Assembly (NCBI GenBank): GCA_964590575.1
Contig: CAZPWM010000049.1
Coordinates: forward strand, 1 to 21,914
DNA length: 21,914 nt
DNA from: an uncultured archaeon
GTDB taxonomy: Archaea; Asgardarchaeota; Thorarchaeia; Thorarchaeales; Thorarchaeaceae
Direction of reading: 5' to 3'
Shown here: piece after piece, positions 9,174-18,022 of the stretch
How the letters are laid out: the number at the start of each line of letters is the position of its first letter
Position numbering within the stretch: the stretch's first letter is position 1
Translations under genes and position numbers: made by a program
The notes under the pieces: model-generated
Told to the model about the DNA's origin: nothing
What the model saw: only the letters and a program-made list of their open reading frames with translations
Databases searched by the model: none

Positions 9174-10553
9174 TCAACTGGCAAGGTGTTTCATACAGTG
9201 TAGTGCGCTCCCCACCTGAACTCTAACAAGCTTCTGAATCGGAATTACTGTGAAATTTGTACCACTGAGAGTATTTTGTATGCCTGATGCAACATATTCA
9301 TCCATTTCCTGTTTGATATCCATCAGTTCCTTATCTTTACTAGGATGAATGATAGAGGCTTCATCACATAGTCTTGCCACCATTGCAGATCTTAGATATC
9401 CATAGTATCTAGAGGCTACCTTCAAGTCAAAGGCTTGAGCCACTGTGGCTTTCCCCTCATACATAGGAGAGTTCCTTGCATGTATGAATTCAGGCAATAC
9501 ACGATCCTCGAAGTTATCAGCCATGTCAGCTACTGAACTGAAGAGTTTGGAGCTAGTATCACAGTACTCCTGAATGCTGTCAAACTTCTCCTTGCTGTAT
9601 TGATACAGTTCAACTGTGAAATCTAGAGATTCGAAGACAAGTGAGCGTCGATCTTCGTCTGTGAACGAGCTGTCATCCAACGCATTGTCATAGAAATAGG
9701 GCATCTCACAGAGTAGTGTGAATCCACGATTTTTGGTGACTGTCTTTAAGTAGTCTGCAGATGATGTACCCCATTTTATGAGCTCCTGAGGATTCTCAAC
9801 TCCATTTGATTCATAGAAATCGTACATCTCTTGAATCCCAAACATCTCATAGATTCCTGGACTTAACTCCTTGATGTAGGGAGCTTCTGGTTCACCCTGA
9901 TGTAACGGTAGATTCTCTTTCCTCACAAGATTGACCAGATGTGGGTAGCTCTCCTCAATCTCTTGAGTGAGATAGAAATAGACTCCACAGAATCCTGCAT
10001 TATGAAGACTGAACATGAAATCCGGTTTGATTTCATCTATGAGGGACATCAACGCCTGCGTTTCAGGAGGTGTTTCAGTGAATGAGAGTTTCTTGTAGGC
10101 TACTGGAAAGGTCCACTCCATCTGTTCGTGTCCCGGAGGTCTGTAGTAATTCCTTGCGTATTTCACAGGATCAAATTTACCTTTGAACCAGCCTTCATTG
10201 AGAGCTGCACCATCTGGATCAATTGCCTTAATCAAATACCATGTGAAACCTGTTTGTTTGACCATGTCAGGATTCTCTGCGAGGTACTTGGACAGAAACT
10301 CAACAGTCATACTACCAATTGGTTCGTTTGGATGGGGAAAAGCAAAAAGAAGTGCATTACGATCTCCTTCACCTATTTTCATGCAGGATATTGGTCTTCC
10401 TTCTCTGGACTCTCCGATTTTCCTTAAGGTCATCTCAGAGAACTCATCCGCAAGTTCCGTACTGGATACATCAAGCTCCTTGACTGTCAGAAACTCTTTG
10501 TATTTAGGAACCGCATCTAGAACTTCGTCAATGTTCAACTCTTGCTCCTCCAC
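9174..10553 (-). CDS. M14-family zinc carboxypeptidase-like protein
   Basis: IGESREGRPI, HPNE (HxxE), DPDG, PETQALM, FSLHN motifs; GTG start. Confidence 0.88.
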   Translation of the reverse strand: MEEQELNIDEVLDAVPKYKEFLTVKELDVSSTELADEFSEMTLRKIGESREGRPISCMKIGEGDRNALLFAFPHPNEPIGSMTVEFLSKYLAENPDMVKQTGFTWYLIKAIDPDGAALNEGWFKGKFDPVKYARNYYRPPGHEQMEWTFPVAYKKLSFTETPPETQALMSLIDEIKPDFMFSLHNAGFCGVYFYLTQEIEESYPHLVNLVRKENLPLHQGEPEAPYIKELSPGIYEMFGIQEMYDFYESNGVENPQELIKWGTSSADYLKTVTKNRGFTLLCEMPYFYDNALDDSSFTDEDRRSLVFESLDFTVELYQYSKEKFDSIQEYCDTSSKLFSSVADMADNFEDRVLPEFIHARNSPMYEGKATVAQAFDLKVASRYYGYLRSAMVARLCDEASIIHPSKDKELMDIKQEMDEYVASGIQNTLSGTNFTVIPIQKLVRVQVGSALHCMKHLAS

Positions 10554-10627
10554 AGAGATTCACACAGTTCTTTGTGATACGAATCATCCTTATATCTTCG
10601 GATTATTAGTTAACAATAGTAAAGAAG

Positions 10628-10645
10628 AGTGATGGTAGCGGGTGG
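10628..10645 (-). repeat. tRNA-proximal copy of the att-like repeat (tRNA positions 64-76 plus 5-nt trailer)
   Basis: Matches 9154-9171 at 17/18. Confidence 0.75.
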
Positions 10646-10649
10646 ATGA

Positions 10650-10682
10650 TATTCCAGCCGACAGGATGACCCTGCACAGCTT
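10650..10682 (-). other. tRNA intron 3, T-loop, position 59/60, 33 nt
   Basis: Central helix TTCA/GGAA (3 of 4 pairs), bulges AA^A and TA^T, inner helix AGCTG/CGGCT, outer helix is the T-stem. Confidence 0.85.
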
Positions 10683-10704
10683 TTTGAACATCCGATCTCG
10701 GGGT

Positions 10705-10737
10705 TTCCCGAAGGCGGAACTCAAGCGTTGCCGCTTT
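10705..10737 (-). other. tRNA intron 2, canonical position 37/38, 33 nt
   Basis: Central helix CTCA/CGGG (one wobble, one mismatch), bulges TA^A and AA^A, inner helix AAG/CTT, outer helix is the anticodon stem. Confidence 0.85.
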
Positions 10738-10758
10738 TATGAGCCCCGCGGGATAGGC

Positions 10759-10789
10759 GTCGCCCGCACCCGGACGAGTCCGAGCAGGA
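10759..10789 (-). other. tRNA intron 1, D-loop, position 18/19, 31 nt
   Basis: Removal restores G18-G19; helix AGCC/GGCG (3 of 4 pairs), bulge AG^T, inner hairpin CTCGGA-ctcg-TCCGGG; relaxed motif without an outer helix. Confidence 0.75.
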
Positions 10790-10837
10790 CTGGCTTCCCC
10801 AACCCGCTATGTGTAGATTGAGTTTTGCTGATGTGAG

Positions 10838-10844
10838 TTTTAAA
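10838..10844 (-). promoter_or_regulatory. TATA box of the tRNA gene
   Basis: TTTAAAA 30-36 nt upstream of tRNA position 1. Confidence 0.6.
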
Positions 10845-10913
10845 GTTATTCGTAGAGCGCGAGGAATTGTCGGTTCATTTATCTGGCAAAATTGTATAGC
10901 AAGCAGGAAAGAG

Positions 10914-11519
10914 ATGGGTGATTCGAAGCTACTTGCAAAGTTCCATCGCTTATGCGATGACTACAAGGCTGAGTATGCCATAGAGGGAGTGGTTGAGGAT
11001 TTTGACACCATATATCCGGTGCCCCCAGAACGACTGACTCGAGGAATGACCCTTAACCTTGGAAACGAAACAAAACTTGTTGACTTTCACCTTACGAAAA
11101 GACCACCAGTGAATGTTGGAGACAAGGTGGTCGTCGTGGGAAGGAACTATTCAATTAGAGAGAGAAGTTTCTTGCCAGCTGTCATCCTGAGTCCAGAAGA
11201 GAAGTGGGTGTTGTTTTCGAAAGAGAATCTAGTGAAGAAACCAAACAAACTAGAACTTGTGATTATTCTGATAGGAGCAGTAGTTCTTATTGTTGAATGG
11301 TTGATTGCCAGTGTATTTGGCAGCTTTGGCATCGTCGCATATGGCAGCTTAGTACTCTTTCTCTTATTCTGCCCCCCTCCATATGTATTGAGCTATATAC
11401 AGAGACCTCGAATGTACAATTGCAGCGAACAAGAGTGTCGGTTACTCCTAGAGGAGATAGGAGGTAGATTTGCTCCCAGAGTGAAAGCAACTGAAAAACA
11501 AACTCGCAGGACCTTCTAG
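10914..11519 (+). CDS. hypothetical membrane protein (soluble beta-rich N-terminal domain plus 2 TM)
   Basis: Start moved to ATG 10914 because 10809 abuts the divergent tRNA and the extension covers its promoter; PVNVGDKVVVVG suggests a beta-barrel. Confidence 0.7.
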   Translation: MGDSKLLAKFHRLCDDYKAEYAIEGVVEDFDTIYPVPPERLTRGMTLNLGNETKLVDFHLTKRPPVNVGDKVVVVGRNYSIRERSFLPAVILSPEEKWVLFSKENLVKKPNKLELVIILIGAVVLIVEWLIASVFGSFGIVAYGSLVLFLLFCPPPYVLSYIQRPRMYNCSEQECRLLLEEIGGRFAPRVKATEKQTRRTF

Positions 11520-11988: not shown

Positions 11989-13179
11989 TTACTTTACCTT
12001 TCGGGCGAACTCCTTTCCGAAGTTGAAAGCCTGGTCGAGTTCATCCTTATCTGGCACCCACTTCACTGTGAATGGCTCCATGACTATGTCCATCTTTCCT
12101 TTCTCCATGGACTCCTGAATCTTTTTCACAGCACCTCCACCCCAACCATAAGAGCCGAACGCGGCGCACTTCTTGCCAGCTGGTTTCAGCACTTCCAAGT
12201 CAGAGAGAACAGGAGCAGCAGTGGGCAGGATATCATTGTGCACAGTCGAACATCCTACGAGAATGCCTCTTGCTTCCAACATGTCAGCTATGATGTCACT
12301 GCGGTCACTTTGGGGAATTAGTTTCAAGATAGGTTCCAGACCTTCGCTGTGAACACCTTCAGCGATGGCACGTGCGAGTTTCGTGGTACTATTCCACATG
12401 GTGTCCCAAGTGATGACCACCTTGTCCTGCAACCTCTCACCCTTTGCCCATTCAAGATATCTAGTGACAATTTGAAGTGGGTCTTTGCGCCAAATCAGTC
12501 CATGTGAAGGGGCTATCATCTTGATTGGCAAGCCAAGTTCAACAACCTCCTCGATCTTTCTTTGGACCATCCTACTTAATGGCCAGAGAATGTTTGCATA
12601 GTATTTCTCAGCCTCTCGCCAGAGGACGTGTTGGTCCACCTCATCTGCGAACCGCTGCGCTGTAGCGTAATGCTGGCCAAAGGCGTCATTTGGCAACAAG
12701 AGTTGTTCTTCTACATAGTAGGTGAACATAGACTCCGGCCAGTGAAGCATCGGTGCCTCATAGAATCGGAGTGTTTTTCCTCCCAGGTCTAGTTCATCAC
12801 CTGTCTTGACTGTTTGAATATTCCAGCCATCTTCATAGTGTTTTTTGAGTTGGTCAACAGCTTTTGATGTACAGATTAGTTTGGCATCTGGAGCCATCTT
12901 GAGAATATTAGGCGTTGCTCCGGAATGGTCCATCTCGGTGTGGTTAGATATCATGAAATCTATTTTCTGAGGGTCAATCACTTTGGAGATTCTGGTAAGC
13001 ATCTCATCAGTAAAAGGACCCATTACTGAGTCAACAAGTGCGATTTTCTTGCCGACTATCAGATATGCATTGTATGTAGTACCATGATGTGTTGAATAGC
13101 TATAACCATGGAAGTATCGGATGTTGTAATCTAATGCTCCAACCCAGTATACACCTTTCATAATTTCAAATGGTTCCAT
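11989..13179 (-). CDS. fprA: flavodiiron protein (FprA / A-type flavoprotein)
   Basis: GTTYNAYL, HTEMDH, PMLHWPES, DAFGQH, APSHG, flavodoxin TMWNST and FGSYGWGGGA; start MEPFEI at 13179 with GAGGCGG upstream. Confidence 0.95.
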   Translation of the reverse strand: MEPFEIMKGVYWVGALDYNIRYFHGYSYSTHHGTTYNAYLIVGKKIALVDSVMGPFTDEMLTRISKVIDPQKIDFMISNHTEMDHSGATPNILKMAPDAKLICTSKAVDQLKKHYEDGWNIQTVKTGDELDLGGKTLRFYEAPMLHWPESMFTYYVEEQLLLPNDAFGQHYATAQRFADEVDQHVLWREAEKYYANILWPLSRMVQRKIEEVVELGLPIKMIAPSHGLIWRKDPLQIVTRYLEWAKGERLQDKVVITWDTMWNSTTKLARAIAEGVHSEGLEPILKLIPQSDRSDIIADMLEARGILVGCSTVHNDILPTAAPVLSDLEVLKPAGKKCAAFGSYGWGGGAVKKIQESMEKGKMDIVMEPFTVKWVPDKDELDQAFNFGKEFARKVK

Positions 13180-13290
13180 AAAATCCGCCTCAAGATGAGG
13201 AATGTAGTTGGCAGATATAAAGAAAAGCATCTGTCCAAAGAAAGTAGAGAATTCTAAATGTGTGATTTGAGGAGCATGCAAAATCTCTCA

Positions 13291-17960: not shown

Positions 17961-18022
17961 CTTTGTGTTGGCGGATACGTCCGCACGGGATGTGGCCCCT
18001 AGAGGCTGAACCACAAACAAAG
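17961..18022 (+). promoter_or_regulatory. structured 5' leader of rpl15e (candidate ribosomal leader)
   Basis: CTTTGT/ACAAAG closing stem; GCGGA-tacg-TCCGC hairpin; GGGATGTGGCC...GGCTGAACC stem with an internal loop. Confidence 0.55.

What the first reader, a model, noticed from the sequence alone, without database searches (positions are those of the whole stretch)
10633..10808. Initiator tRNA-Met interrupted by three introns, one in each loop
Seen: 97 of the 176 nt are intron (31 nt at 18/19, 33 nt at 37/38, 33 nt at 59/60). Excision gives fully paired acceptor, D, anticodon and T stems, G18G19, G15:C48, TTCAAAT, A1:U72, three anticodon-stem G:C pairs and CCA. Established: archaeal EndA cuts bulge-helix-bulge motifs, and multi-intron tRNAs at non-canonical sites are best known from Thermoproteales. 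Inference: a triple-intron initiator tRNA in a probable Asgard archaeon is unusual and likely to be missed by standard annotation. It would make translation initiation depend on three splicing events. I cannot confirm novelty.
Basis: partly seen in the sequence, partly recalled or inferred. Interest (0 to 1): 0.88.

Follow-up and report, generated by a model that had tools for sequence, protein, structure and literature searches.

The report
Initiator tRNA gene with three introns
This is a real initiator methionine tRNA gene of an Asgard (Thor-type) archaeon, split by three short introns that the cell's tRNA-splicing enzyme must remove; it is a clear example of a phenomenon already known in archaea, not a new kind of element.

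Summary
On the minus strand (10808-10633) lie four exons (19, 21, 22, 17 nt) and three introns (31, 33, 33 nt) at 18/19, 37/38 and 59/60. Joining the exons in silico gives a perfect tRNA-Met(CAU) cloverleaf with initiator marks. ARAGORN and Rfam's tRNA model miss the unspliced gene.

The main evidence is comparative. In 26 related genomes the same gene carries 0, 1, 2 or 3 introns at the same sites. The intronless copies match the predicted spliced product except for one compensated anticodon-stem pair. Intron helices covary, and the junctions sit in bulge-helix-bulge register.

The genome encodes an alpha/beta-type splicing endonuclease pair and an RtcB ligase. No second initiator tRNA was found in this 91%-complete assembly. 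Spliced RNA was not observed.

It is not a new kind. Archaeal tRNA genes with up to three introns are published, as are intron-rich Asgard tRNAs. A scan of species-representative genomes found 40 initiator tRNA genes with three or four called insertions. Verdict: new member of a known kind, moderate interest.

The parts
10835..10855 (-). Putative archaeal promoter (BRE/TATA-like CTACGAATAACTTTAAAACTC; TATA-like CTTTAAAA at 10845-10838, about 30-37 nt upstream of the mature 5' end)
   Evidence: Read from the sequence. The same motif stands at the same distance upstream of the gene in relatives with 0, 1, 2 and 3 introns, e.g. L002, L007, L010, L011, L021, L026, L027, L029. The promoter role is inferred and not tested; the sigma-70 scan does not apply to archaea.
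10790..10808 (-). Exon 1: tRNA positions 1-18 (5' acceptor strand, U8 G9, 5' D-stem strand, D-loop up to G18)
   Evidence: E1 is identical in 22 of the 27 gene rows.
10759..10789 (-). Intron 1, 31 nt, D-loop 18/19. Relaxed BHB (HBh'-like): central helix A14.G + G15:C, C16:G, C17:G; 5' bulge A17a-G18-u; long inner hairpin; no contiguous outer helix
   Evidence: Covariation over 12 homologous introns: 96.4% of cells paired, 6 pairs changed on both sides, 0 of 500 shuffles as high, slid controls 26.9-55.6% paired. Absent at exactly this site in L012, L014, L021, L025-L027, L029, L030.
10738..10758 (-). Exon 2: positions 19-37 (rest of D-loop, 3' D-stem strand, G26, 5' anticodon-stem strand CGGGG, C32 U33, anticodon CAU, A37)
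10705..10737 (-). Intron 2, 33 nt, canonical site 37/38. BHB register: anticodon stem 5/5 as outer helix, central helix C32:G, U33:G, C34:G, A35.C, bulges U36-A37-a and a-a-A38. A more stable alternative fold also exists
   Evidence: Relatives carry long (29-35 nt) or short (20-22 nt) forms at the same site, or none (L015, L016, L022, L024, L027, L029, L030). Placement is ambiguous by -1/+1.
10683..10704 (-). Exon 3: positions 38-59 (3' anticodon-stem strand, variable loop AGAUC, 5' T-stem strand GGAUG, T-loop up to A59)
10650..10682 (-). Intron 3, 33 nt, T-loop 59/60. Near-canonical hBHBh': T stem 5/5, central helix U54:A, U55:A, C56:G, A57.G, bulges A58-A59-a and u-a-U60, inner helix 5 bp + 5 bp
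   Evidence: On 4 sequences: 95.8% paired, 6 pairs changed on both sides, 0 of 500 shuffles as high. Homologous 33-nt intron in L002 and L003. DNA contigs of two metagenome runs join 10649 to 10683, that is, they lack exactly this intron.
10633..10649 (-). Exon 4: positions 60-73 plus the encoded CCA (U60, 3' T-stem strand, 3' acceptor strand, discriminator A73, CCA)
   Evidence: CCA follows the gene in all 31 rows.
10619..10632 (-). T-rich 3' trailer (TCACTCTTCTTTAC), possible termination signal
   Evidence: Read from the sequence. T-rich trailers are also seen in relatives. Inference only; the terminator scan found none of the bacterial hairpin type.

Best explanation
This is the functional, probably single-copy initiator tRNA-Met gene of a Thorarchaeota-type Asgard archaeon. 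It would be transcribed as a precursor of about 180 nt or more from a BRE/TATA-type promoter about 33 nt upstream. The precursor keeps its acceptor, D and T stems, and each loop carries an intron that folds into its own hairpin. A heterotetramer-type (alpha-beta)2 splicing endonuclease (EndA) would cut each intron at two 3-nt bulges that flank a 4-bp helix. This motif is near-canonical at 37/38 and 59/60 and relaxed at 18/19. RtcB would then ligate the exons to give a 76-nt tRNA ending in an encoded CCA. The three motifs sit in different arms, so the cuts need not follow a fixed order. Shown here: gene anatomy, exact junctions, conservation and covariation, and the presence of the enzymes. Inferred: transcription, actual cleavage and ligation, and that the gene is the only initiator tRNA.
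For: (1) Splicing in silico gives a perfect tRNA-Met(CAU) cloverleaf with A1:U72 and three G:C pairs in the anticodon stem.
(2) Of 26 related genomes with a parsable gene, 2 have no intron, 7 have one, 13 have two and 4 (own included) have three. Introns appear or vanish at exact sites while the exons stay nearly identical. The intronless L027 scores 57.4 bits on RF00005.
(3) Intron helices covary. Intron 1: 6 pairs changed on both sides, 0 of 500 shuffles as high. Intron 3: 6 pairs, 0 of 500.
(4) Junctions derived from exon homology fall in BHB register in 47 of 51 distinct intron instances. Slid registers give 0-20 of 51; shuffled introns give a mean of 9.1, maximum 16. For the own introns the central helix is 3 of 4 pairs in each, and the outer helix is 5 of 5 for introns 2 and 3.
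(5) The own genome has two EndA homologues. The 187-aa one aligns end to end with the Aeropyrum pernix catalytic subunit (3p1z_B, E 1.3e-44), including the N-terminal loop region and the His mutated in 3ajv. The 230-aa one has Ser where M. kandleri H303 aligns, as expected of a structural subunit. RtcB scores 593 bits. Asgard (alpha-beta)2 EndA with the L1 loop is published (PMC5829648 passages).
(6) No other initiator-like tRNA is in the assembly.
(7) A conserved promoter-like motif is shared with intronless orthologues.
(8) The same DNA stands in independent metagenome assemblies.
Against: No spliced RNA was seen. The only RNA-library contig on the locus (run X24, 151 nt, 10656-10806) is unspliced and may be DNA or precursor.

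Intron 1 has no contiguous outer helix, and each central helix has one non-standard pair (A.G, A.C, A.G).

The lowest-energy fold of the intron 2 region does not show the BHB. It pairs the 5' anticodon-stem strand with the intron: -22.4 against -18.4 kcal/mol with the anticodon stem enforced.

The assembly is 91% complete in 194 contigs, so a second, intronless copy cannot be excluded. Relatives G009 and G004 have more than one copy.

Synteny around the gene is poorly conserved: of 32 other loci searched, the M14 neighbour was found in 1 and ORF236-like genes in 4.

The rule that cleavage falls after the second bulge nucleotide is recalled, not taken from a paper read here.
Confidence: 0.9

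Rival explanations
1. The locus is a decaying or redundant paralogue, and the working initiator tRNA is an intronless or less interrupted copy in the unassembled part of the genome.
For: The assembly is 91.45% complete in 194 contigs. Some relatives hold two or three copies with different intron loads: G009 has a second match about 2 kb away, and G004 has matches on two contigs.
Against: The exons have no mismatch against the conserved mature sequence and all stems pair. The introns keep compensatory changes. A near-identical three-intron gene (95% identity) stands in another species of the genus (L002). The promoter motif is intact. No second copy was found by three searches.
Confidence: 0.05
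2. Only some of the insertions are EndA introns. The D-loop insertion, whose motif is relaxed, would be removed by another route or not at all, leaving an aberrant or regulatory RNA.
For: Intron 1 lacks a contiguous outer helix, and its 3' site lies in a larger loop.
Against: The intron 1 central helix (G15:C, C16:G, C17:G) is paired in 12 of 12 homologues, and its inner helix covaries. Relaxed HBh' motifs are known substrates of (alpha-beta)2 EndA with the specific loop (PMC5829648, PMC4090602 passages). The own alpha subunit aligns through that loop. The intron is precisely absent in 8 relatives.
Confidence: 0.04
3. The arrangement is an assembly or binning artefact, for example a chimeric contig.
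For: The genome is a metagenome-assembled draft (194 contigs).
Against: Contigs of independent runs cover the locus without breaks at the exon-intron borders (table 8). The same architecture occurs in separately assembled genomes (L002, L003, L007).
Confidence: 0.01

Closest known systems
Multiple-intron tRNA genes of Thermoproteales (Pyrobaculum, Thermofilum), detected with SPLITS/SPLITSX and tRNAscan-SE
   Same: Up to three BHB-type introns per tRNA gene, at canonical and non-canonical sites, in organisms with (alpha-beta)2 EndA (PMC4033280 and PMC8450103, passages read).
   Different: A different phylum (Asgard / Thorarchaeota rather than Thermoproteota) and a sediment rather than thermophile setting (one search run labels). 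The case here is the initiator tRNA, with one intron in each loop. I could not check whether a three-intron initiator tRNA is listed for Thermoproteales: Sugahara 2007 (PMC1852824) is not held, Sugahara 2008 was not looked up, and GtRNAdb and SPLITSdb are not available.
Intron-rich tRNA genes of Atabeyarchaeia and Freyarchaeia (Asgard), Nat Commun 2024, PMC11291895
   Same: The same superphylum. 92-95% of tRNA genes carry an intron, over half carry several, and many sites are non-canonical (passages read).
   Different: Other Asgard classes. The paper's per-gene data are in supplements that I could not see, so I cannot say whether a three-intron initiator tRNA is listed there. Thorarchaeota are not covered in the passages read.
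Disrupted initiator tRNA genes: permuted iMet of Thermofilum pendens (joined at 59/60, plus a 37/38 intron) and split iMet of Nanoarchaeum equitans (37/38), PMC3218864
   Same: An essential initiator tRNA depends on BHB processing, and the same two positions, 37/38 and 59/60, are used (passages read).
   Different: Here the gene is collinear, neither permuted nor split, and has a third intron in the D-loop.
[quoted passage not shown]
   Same: One intron in each of the three arms of a single tRNA gene.
   Different: A eukaryotic nuclear gene, another isotype and another endonuclease complex.

Membership tests
Archaeal initiator tRNA-Met | CAU anticodon in a standard cloverleaf | tested here: met
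   ARAGORN calls the spliced 79-mer tRNA-Met(cat); all stems pair.
Archaeal initiator tRNA-Met | A1:U72 terminal pair and three consecutive G:C pairs (29-31:39-41) in the anticodon stem (identity elements recalled; A1:U72 is mentioned for iMet in PMC8450103) | tested here: met
   Read from the spliced sequence. The other CAU tRNA of the genome (C10:39206-39312) has G1:C72 and a CCAGG/CCTGG anticodon stem, so it is an elongator.
Archaeal initiator tRNA-Met | Best score on tRNAscan-SE's iMet isotype model | not testable with these tools
   tRNAscan-SE is not available. As a proxy, the natural intronless orthologue L027 scores 57.4 bits on the general Rfam tRNA model.
BHB (EndA-spliced) archaeal tRNA introns | Two 3-nt bulges on opposite strands, separated by a 4-bp helix, with the cuts after the second bulge nucleotide (rule recalled) | tested here: met
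   In that register the central helix has 3 of 4 standard pairs plus one A.G or A.C for each own intron. Across relatives 47 of 51 instances have at least 3 of 4, against 0-20 of 51 in slid registers and a mean of 9.1 in shuffles. All three own motifs are therefore slightly relaxed.
BHB (EndA-spliced) archaeal tRNA introns | Flanking outer (h) and inner (h') helices | tested here: inconclusive
   Introns 2 and 3: outer helix 5 of 5 (anticodon and T stems), and the first 3 and first 5 inner-helix pairs form. Intron 1: inner helix present, outer helix not contiguous, so HBh' type. The intron 2 region has a more stable competing fold.
BHB (EndA-spliced) archaeal tRNA introns | Exact excision restores the mature tRNA; intronless alleles exist | tested here: met
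BHB (EndA-spliced) archaeal tRNA introns | Host encodes a splicing endonuclease with broad specificity, and a ligase | tested here: met
   Two PF01974 proteins, alpha-like with Tyr/His/Lys and beta-like without the His. RtcB is present. Broad specificity itself is inferred from likeness to the A. pernix alpha subunit.
BHB (EndA-spliced) archaeal tRNA introns | Spliced product observed in RNA | tested here: inconclusive
   Only assembled contigs could be laid. One RNA-library contig covers the locus unspliced; no joint was seen in RNA.

The most novel reading that the evidence does not exclude
The single initiator tRNA gene of this Thorarchaeota family is a hot spot of ongoing, precise intron gain and loss. 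Across 26 related genomes it shows every state from 0 to 3 introns, at about six called sites: around 17/17a, 18/19 and 19/20 in the D-loop, 37/38, and 56/57 and 59/60 in the T-loop (placements good to 1-2 nt). Intron sequences are shared between species, and gene neighbourhoods differ. If the introns are mobile in the present, as proposed for Thermoproteales, this gene family would be a natural series from which the mechanism of archaeal tRNA-intron insertion and exact deletion could be worked out in the closest prokaryotic relatives of eukaryotes.
Probability: 0.35. Interest if true: 0.6.

Novelty: new member of a known kind. Interest (0 to 1): 0.35.

Why it matters
Practical point: the only recognisable initiator tRNA of this genome is invisible to ARAGORN and to the Rfam tRNA model. 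Annotations of Asgard draft genomes made with such tools will wrongly report it missing, and completeness or translation inferences based on tRNA sets will be biased. In this genome 33 tRNAs were detected. By my reading of the list, many expected anticodons are unaccounted for: all Ser, Tyr, Asn, and several Pro, Gly, Ala, Arg and Leu.

Biological point: it ties translation initiation to EndA and RtcB activity in an Asgard archaeon. Together with the 0-3 intron series in relatives, it gives a compact comparative data set on tRNA intron turnover.

It does not reveal a new mechanism.

Tried and rejected
RNA evidence. One search for runs and one laying of four runs gave only assembled contigs. 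The RNA-library run X24 gave two contigs, one unspliced over 10656-10806, and no joint. This neither shows nor excludes splicing. The joint 10649->10683 seen in DNA runs X5 and X9 is a DNA variant without intron 3, not RNA splicing.

Intron mobility within the genome. blastn-short of the three introns against the genome found only themselves plus 10-15-nt chance hits. The three introns are no more alike than shuffles: 284, 205 and 74 of 500 shuffles score as high. A weak hit on C83 lies in what reads as coding-like sequence and was dropped.

Other initiator-like loci. Pairs of AGCGGG...CCCGCTA on C8, C41, C47 and C107 lack the anticodon arm and T-loop motifs and were rejected. The 15 other GGGCTCATA sites have no tRNA context.

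Rfam at E<=10 on 10500-10950 gave four weak non-tRNA matches (Phage_DGR 17.5 bits, two snoRNA families, RAGATH-8), all far below gathering scores; I treat them as chance.

C/D-box guide RNAs inside the introns were considered. I rejected this on size (31-33 nt) and because no C and D boxes are visible by eye; it was not formally searched.

Long-form intron 2 alignment (A4). MAFFT misaligned the internal motifs, so I did not count pairs on it. A3 (short forms) was also not counted. Which conformer of intron 2 EndA uses remains open.

Synteny as proof of orthology failed.

A whole-genome census of multi-intron tRNAs was not attempted, because no BHB-aware tRNA finder is available.

In one search the observed and slid counts took the best of the equivalent junction placements, and the shuffled control did not. 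This slightly favours the observed value.

In one search, 4 of the 30 relative loci (L013, L018, L023, L028) gave no complete gene and are left out of the 26.

Supplements of PMC11291895 and PMC5829648, which may list per-gene intron data for Asgard tRNAs, could not be seen. GtRNAdb and SPLITSdb could not be consulted.

Not in print, as far as searched. (terms: three introns/tRNA/archaea/bulge-helix-bulge; tRNA introns/Asgard/non-canonical; Thorarchae/tRNA/introns/endonuclease; initiator tRNA/multiple introns/archaea) listed no paper whose title or abstract describes a three-intron initiator tRNA in Asgard archaea. This covers the held library only.

Full report
**What is there**

On the minus strand, window 10808->10633 (176 nt) reads as a tRNA gene in four pieces:
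- exon 1, 10808-10790 (19 nt)
- intron 1, 10789-10759 (31 nt)
- exon 2, 10758-10738 (21 nt)
- intron 2, 10737-10705 (33 nt)
- exon 3, 10704-10683 (22 nt)
- intron 3, 10682-10650 (33 nt)
- exon 4, 10649-10633 (17 nt, with CCA)

I joined the exons by coordinates in a script. The result is a 79-nt sequence that ARAGORN calls tRNA-Met(cat), with all stems paired. It has A1:U72, G18G19, G15/C48, G29-31:C39-41, a TTCAAAT T-loop, A73 and an encoded CCA.

Standard finders do not see the gene:
- ARAGORN finds nothing in the window, nor in the unspliced 176-mer with its intron option on.
- Rfam at gathering thresholds finds only an eL15 leader at 17971-18017.
- Rfam at E<=10 on 10500-10950 gives four weak non-tRNA matches.
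- The genome-wide RF00005 search lists 33 tRNAs, none on this contig.

**Is it more than chance? Comparative evidence**

I searched 60 relatives with the 176-nt DNA. The top 30 loci were parsed by exon matching and by a splice-aware alignment to the mature sequence. A complete gene was recovered in 26 loci; L013, L018, L023 and L028 were not parsable.

| Introns | Genomes |
|---|---|
| 0 | G021, G006 |
| 1 | G032, G028, G027, G031, G005, G002, G035 |
| 2 | G014, G026, G011, G024, G022, G025, G015, G013, G001, G007, G034, G033, G017 |
| 3 | G000 (own), G012, G009, G010 |

The exons are almost invariant. Introns are present or absent at exact positions. The intronless genes differ from the predicted spliced product only by a compensated G:C->A:U pair in the anticodon stem. 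The natural intronless orthologue L027 scores 57.4 bits on Rfam tRNA (gathering score 29), and ARAGORN finds it. ARAGORN finds no gene in the interrupted L002, L003, L004, L007 and L022, and miscalls L021.

G012 has the same three introns at 95% identity. G009 has introns 1 and 3 plus a 21-nt form of intron 2. G010 has introns 1 and 2 plus a different 30-nt intron at about 56/57.

About six insertion sites are called in this one gene across the family: around 17/17a, 18/19, 19/20, 37/38, 56/57 and 59/60. Placements by my alignment may be off by 1-2 nt.

**Structure of the introns**

I used the recalled rule for the archaeal bulge-helix-bulge motif: two 3-nt bulges on opposite strands, separated by 4 bp, with cleavage after the second bulge nucleotide. 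The junctions fixed by exon homology fall in that register.

For the own gene:

| Intron | Outer helix | Central helix | Bulges | Inner helix |
|---|---|---|---|---|
| 3 | T stem, 5/5 | U54:A, U55:A, C56:G, A57.G | AAa / uaU | 5 bp, then 5 more |
| 2 | Anticodon stem, 5/5 | C32:G, U33:G, C34:G, A35.C | UAa / aaA | 3 bp |
| 1 | None contiguous | A14.G, G15:C, C16:G, C17:G | AGu (5') | Long, with one C.C mismatch |

Intron 1 is therefore a relaxed, HBh'-like motif.

Over all distinct introns of the family, 47 of 51 have at least 3 of 4 central-helix pairs in register. Slid registers give 0-20 of 51, and shuffled introns give a mean of 9.1 (maximum 16). One caveat applies: only the observed and slid counts took the best of equivalent junction placements.

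Covariation supports the helices:
- Intron 1, 12 sequences: 96.4% of cells paired, 6 pairs changed on both sides, 0 of 500 shuffles as high, slid controls 26.9-55.6%.
- Intron 3, 4 sequences: 95.8% paired, 6 pairs changed on both sides, 0 of 500 shuffles as high.

The whole precursor folds to -86.5 kcal/mol (z = -5.43). The acceptor, D and T stems stay intact, and introns 1 and 3 form their own hairpins.

One point remains open. In the lowest-energy fold, the long form of intron 2 pairs with the 5' strand of the anticodon stem and loop, and also forms a GNRA-capped hairpin. This fold recurs in 9 of the 13 long-form sequences (29-35 nt) folded, the own one included. It is more stable than the fold with the anticodon stem enforced, -22.4 against -18.4 kcal/mol in the own sequence. 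Which conformer the enzyme sees is not known.

**The machinery is present**

The genome encodes two PF01974 proteins.
- The 187-aa one (contig C17) aligns over its full length with the catalytic alpha subunit of Aeropyrum pernix EndA (3p1z_B, E 1.3e-44). The alignment has no gap through the N-terminal loop region. By my count, a Lys aligns with APE K44. The His that is Ala in the mutant structure 3ajv is kept.
- The 230-aa one (contig C6) keeps the Tyr and Lys but has Ser where M. kandleri H303 aligns. That fits a structural beta subunit.

This is the (alpha-beta)2 architecture reported for Asgard and TACK archaea. That architecture is linked experimentally to cleavage of relaxed motifs at non-canonical sites (PMC5829648, abstract and passages; PMC4090602, passages). 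RtcB is present at 593 bits.

**Expression signals and copy number**

A motif CTACGAATAACTTTAAAACTC lies at 10855-10835, with its TATA-like part about 33 nt upstream of the mature 5' end. The same motif stands at the same distance in relatives with 0 to 3 introns. I take it as the promoter; this is an inference.

No second initiator tRNA was found by three searches:
- blastn-short with the spliced sequence
- a search for the gene's end motifs
- inspection of all 16 GGGCTCATA sites

The other CAU tRNA, at C10:39206-39312, is an elongator with a non-canonical intron. The assembly is 91% complete, so single copy is likely but not proven.

RNA evidence is lacking. Only contigs could be laid, and the one RNA-library contig on the locus is unspliced. 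DNA contigs of two other metagenome runs lack exactly intron 3 (joint 10649->10683). This shows the presence/absence polymorphism in natural populations.

**Who is it**

Named records hold initiator-tRNA segments identical to those of two same-genus handles (L063 with L002, L046 with L003). Those records are titled Candidatus Thorarchaeota archaeon and Promethearchaeota archaeon. NCBI places Thorarchaeota in the kingdom Promethearchaeati. The holders of the DNA are salt-marsh and marine-sediment metagenomes. 'Probable Asgard' is therefore supported.

**How new is it**

- Archaeal tRNA genes with up to three introns are established for Thermoproteales (PMC4033280, PMC8450103, PMC3218864; passages).
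- Asgard genomes with 92-95% intron-bearing tRNA genes, over half of them with several introns, were published in 2024 (PMC11291895, passages).
- Undetected disrupted tRNAs in Asgard drafts, a Thorarchaeota among them, were predicted in 2018 (PMC5829648, passages).
- Initiator tRNAs that depend on BHB processing are known: the permuted iMet of T. pendens, joined at 59/60 with a 37/38 intron, and the split iMet of N. equitans (PMC3218864, passages).

My scan of one genome per species used AGCGGGNNGGGG, a gap of 35-65, GGGCTCATA, a gap of 68-98, then CCCGCTA. It found 52 loci. After splice-aware alignment, ARAGORN confirmed a tRNA-Met in 47. Of these, 7 had two called insertions, 29 had three and 11 had four. 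By record title the three- and four-insertion genes are mostly Bathyarchaeia, with others in Thorarchaeota, Promethearchaeota, Heimdallarchaeota, Thaumarchaeota, Thermoplasmata/Methanomassiliicoccales and one Woesearchaeota record. In the 40 genes with three or four insertions, 108 of 131 called introns are in BHB register. Calls in distant lineages are approximate.

The case is therefore a new member of a known kind. I found no paper in the held library that describes a three-intron initiator tRNA in Asgard archaea. I could not see supplements or tRNA databases.

**Verdict**

The finding is real and well supported at about 0.9. Mechanistically it is ordinary for an archaeon with a broad-specificity EndA. 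Its value lies in annotation and in the 0-3-intron series as material for studying intron turnover. Interest: 0.35.

Noticed in passing
L037:2381-2525(+), L050 (minus strand, 138-nt gene), also L048, L068, L079, L083 (L041 nearly); all outside the window: Initiator tRNA-Met genes in several records titled Bathyarchaeota/Bathyarchaeia carry four short insertions (11-22 nt). Each has at least 3 of 4 central-helix pairs in BHB register, and removing all four gives a perfect iMet cloverleaf. Papers read here state a maximum of three introns per archaeal tRNA gene (PMC4033280, PMC8450103), and a search for 'four introns'/tRNA/archaea listed no archaeal case. Four other four-insertion calls (L038, L058, L061, L064) look doubtful.
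   Followed up: partly
window 10705-10737 with 10738-10758 (minus strand): The long form of intron 2 has a conserved GNRA-capped hairpin and a stretch complementary to the 5' strand of the anticodon stem-loop. The most stable fold therefore hides the anticodon stem (own: -22.4 against -18.4 kcal/mol). The same fold appears in 9 of the 13 long-form sequences folded, the own one included. It could be a folding trap, an ordering device for splicing, or two relaxed half-motifs; this is undecided.
   Followed up: partly
L003, L004, L009, L015, L024, L025: the 60 nt upstream and 30 nt downstream of the iMet gene: In L003, L004 and L009 the upstream region starts with a copy of the first ~11 nt of exon 1 (AGCGGGTTGGG). 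In L003, L009, L015, L024 and L025 the leader (e.g. GTTTAAGT) is complementary to the trailer (e.g. ACTTAAAC), and the own-type promoter motif is missing in all six. This may be a leader-trailer processing helix or a remnant of duplication.
   Followed up: no
own genome, contig C10:39206-39312 (minus strand): The elongator tRNA-Met has an intron of about 30 nt after the anticodon stem, in the variable-loop region, a non-canonical site. ARAGORN and Rfam each detect only 33 tRNAs in the genome. By my reading of the list, all Ser, Tyr and Asn tRNAs and several others are missing, which suggests more hidden multi-intron tRNA genes.
   Followed up: partly
window 17971-18017 (+): An Rfam eL15-Euryarchaeota ribosomal-protein leader matches at 52.4 bits (gathering score 33.7) in an Asgard genome.
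   Followed up: no
window 9174-10553 (-), 11989-13281 (-), 10809-11519 (+): The neighbours are an M14 carboxypeptidase-like protein, a flavodiiron-type protein (ODP + flavodoxin) and ORFs without a Pfam family. The neighbourhood of the tRNA gene is not conserved even in the relative with 95% identical tRNA DNA.
   Followed up: partly
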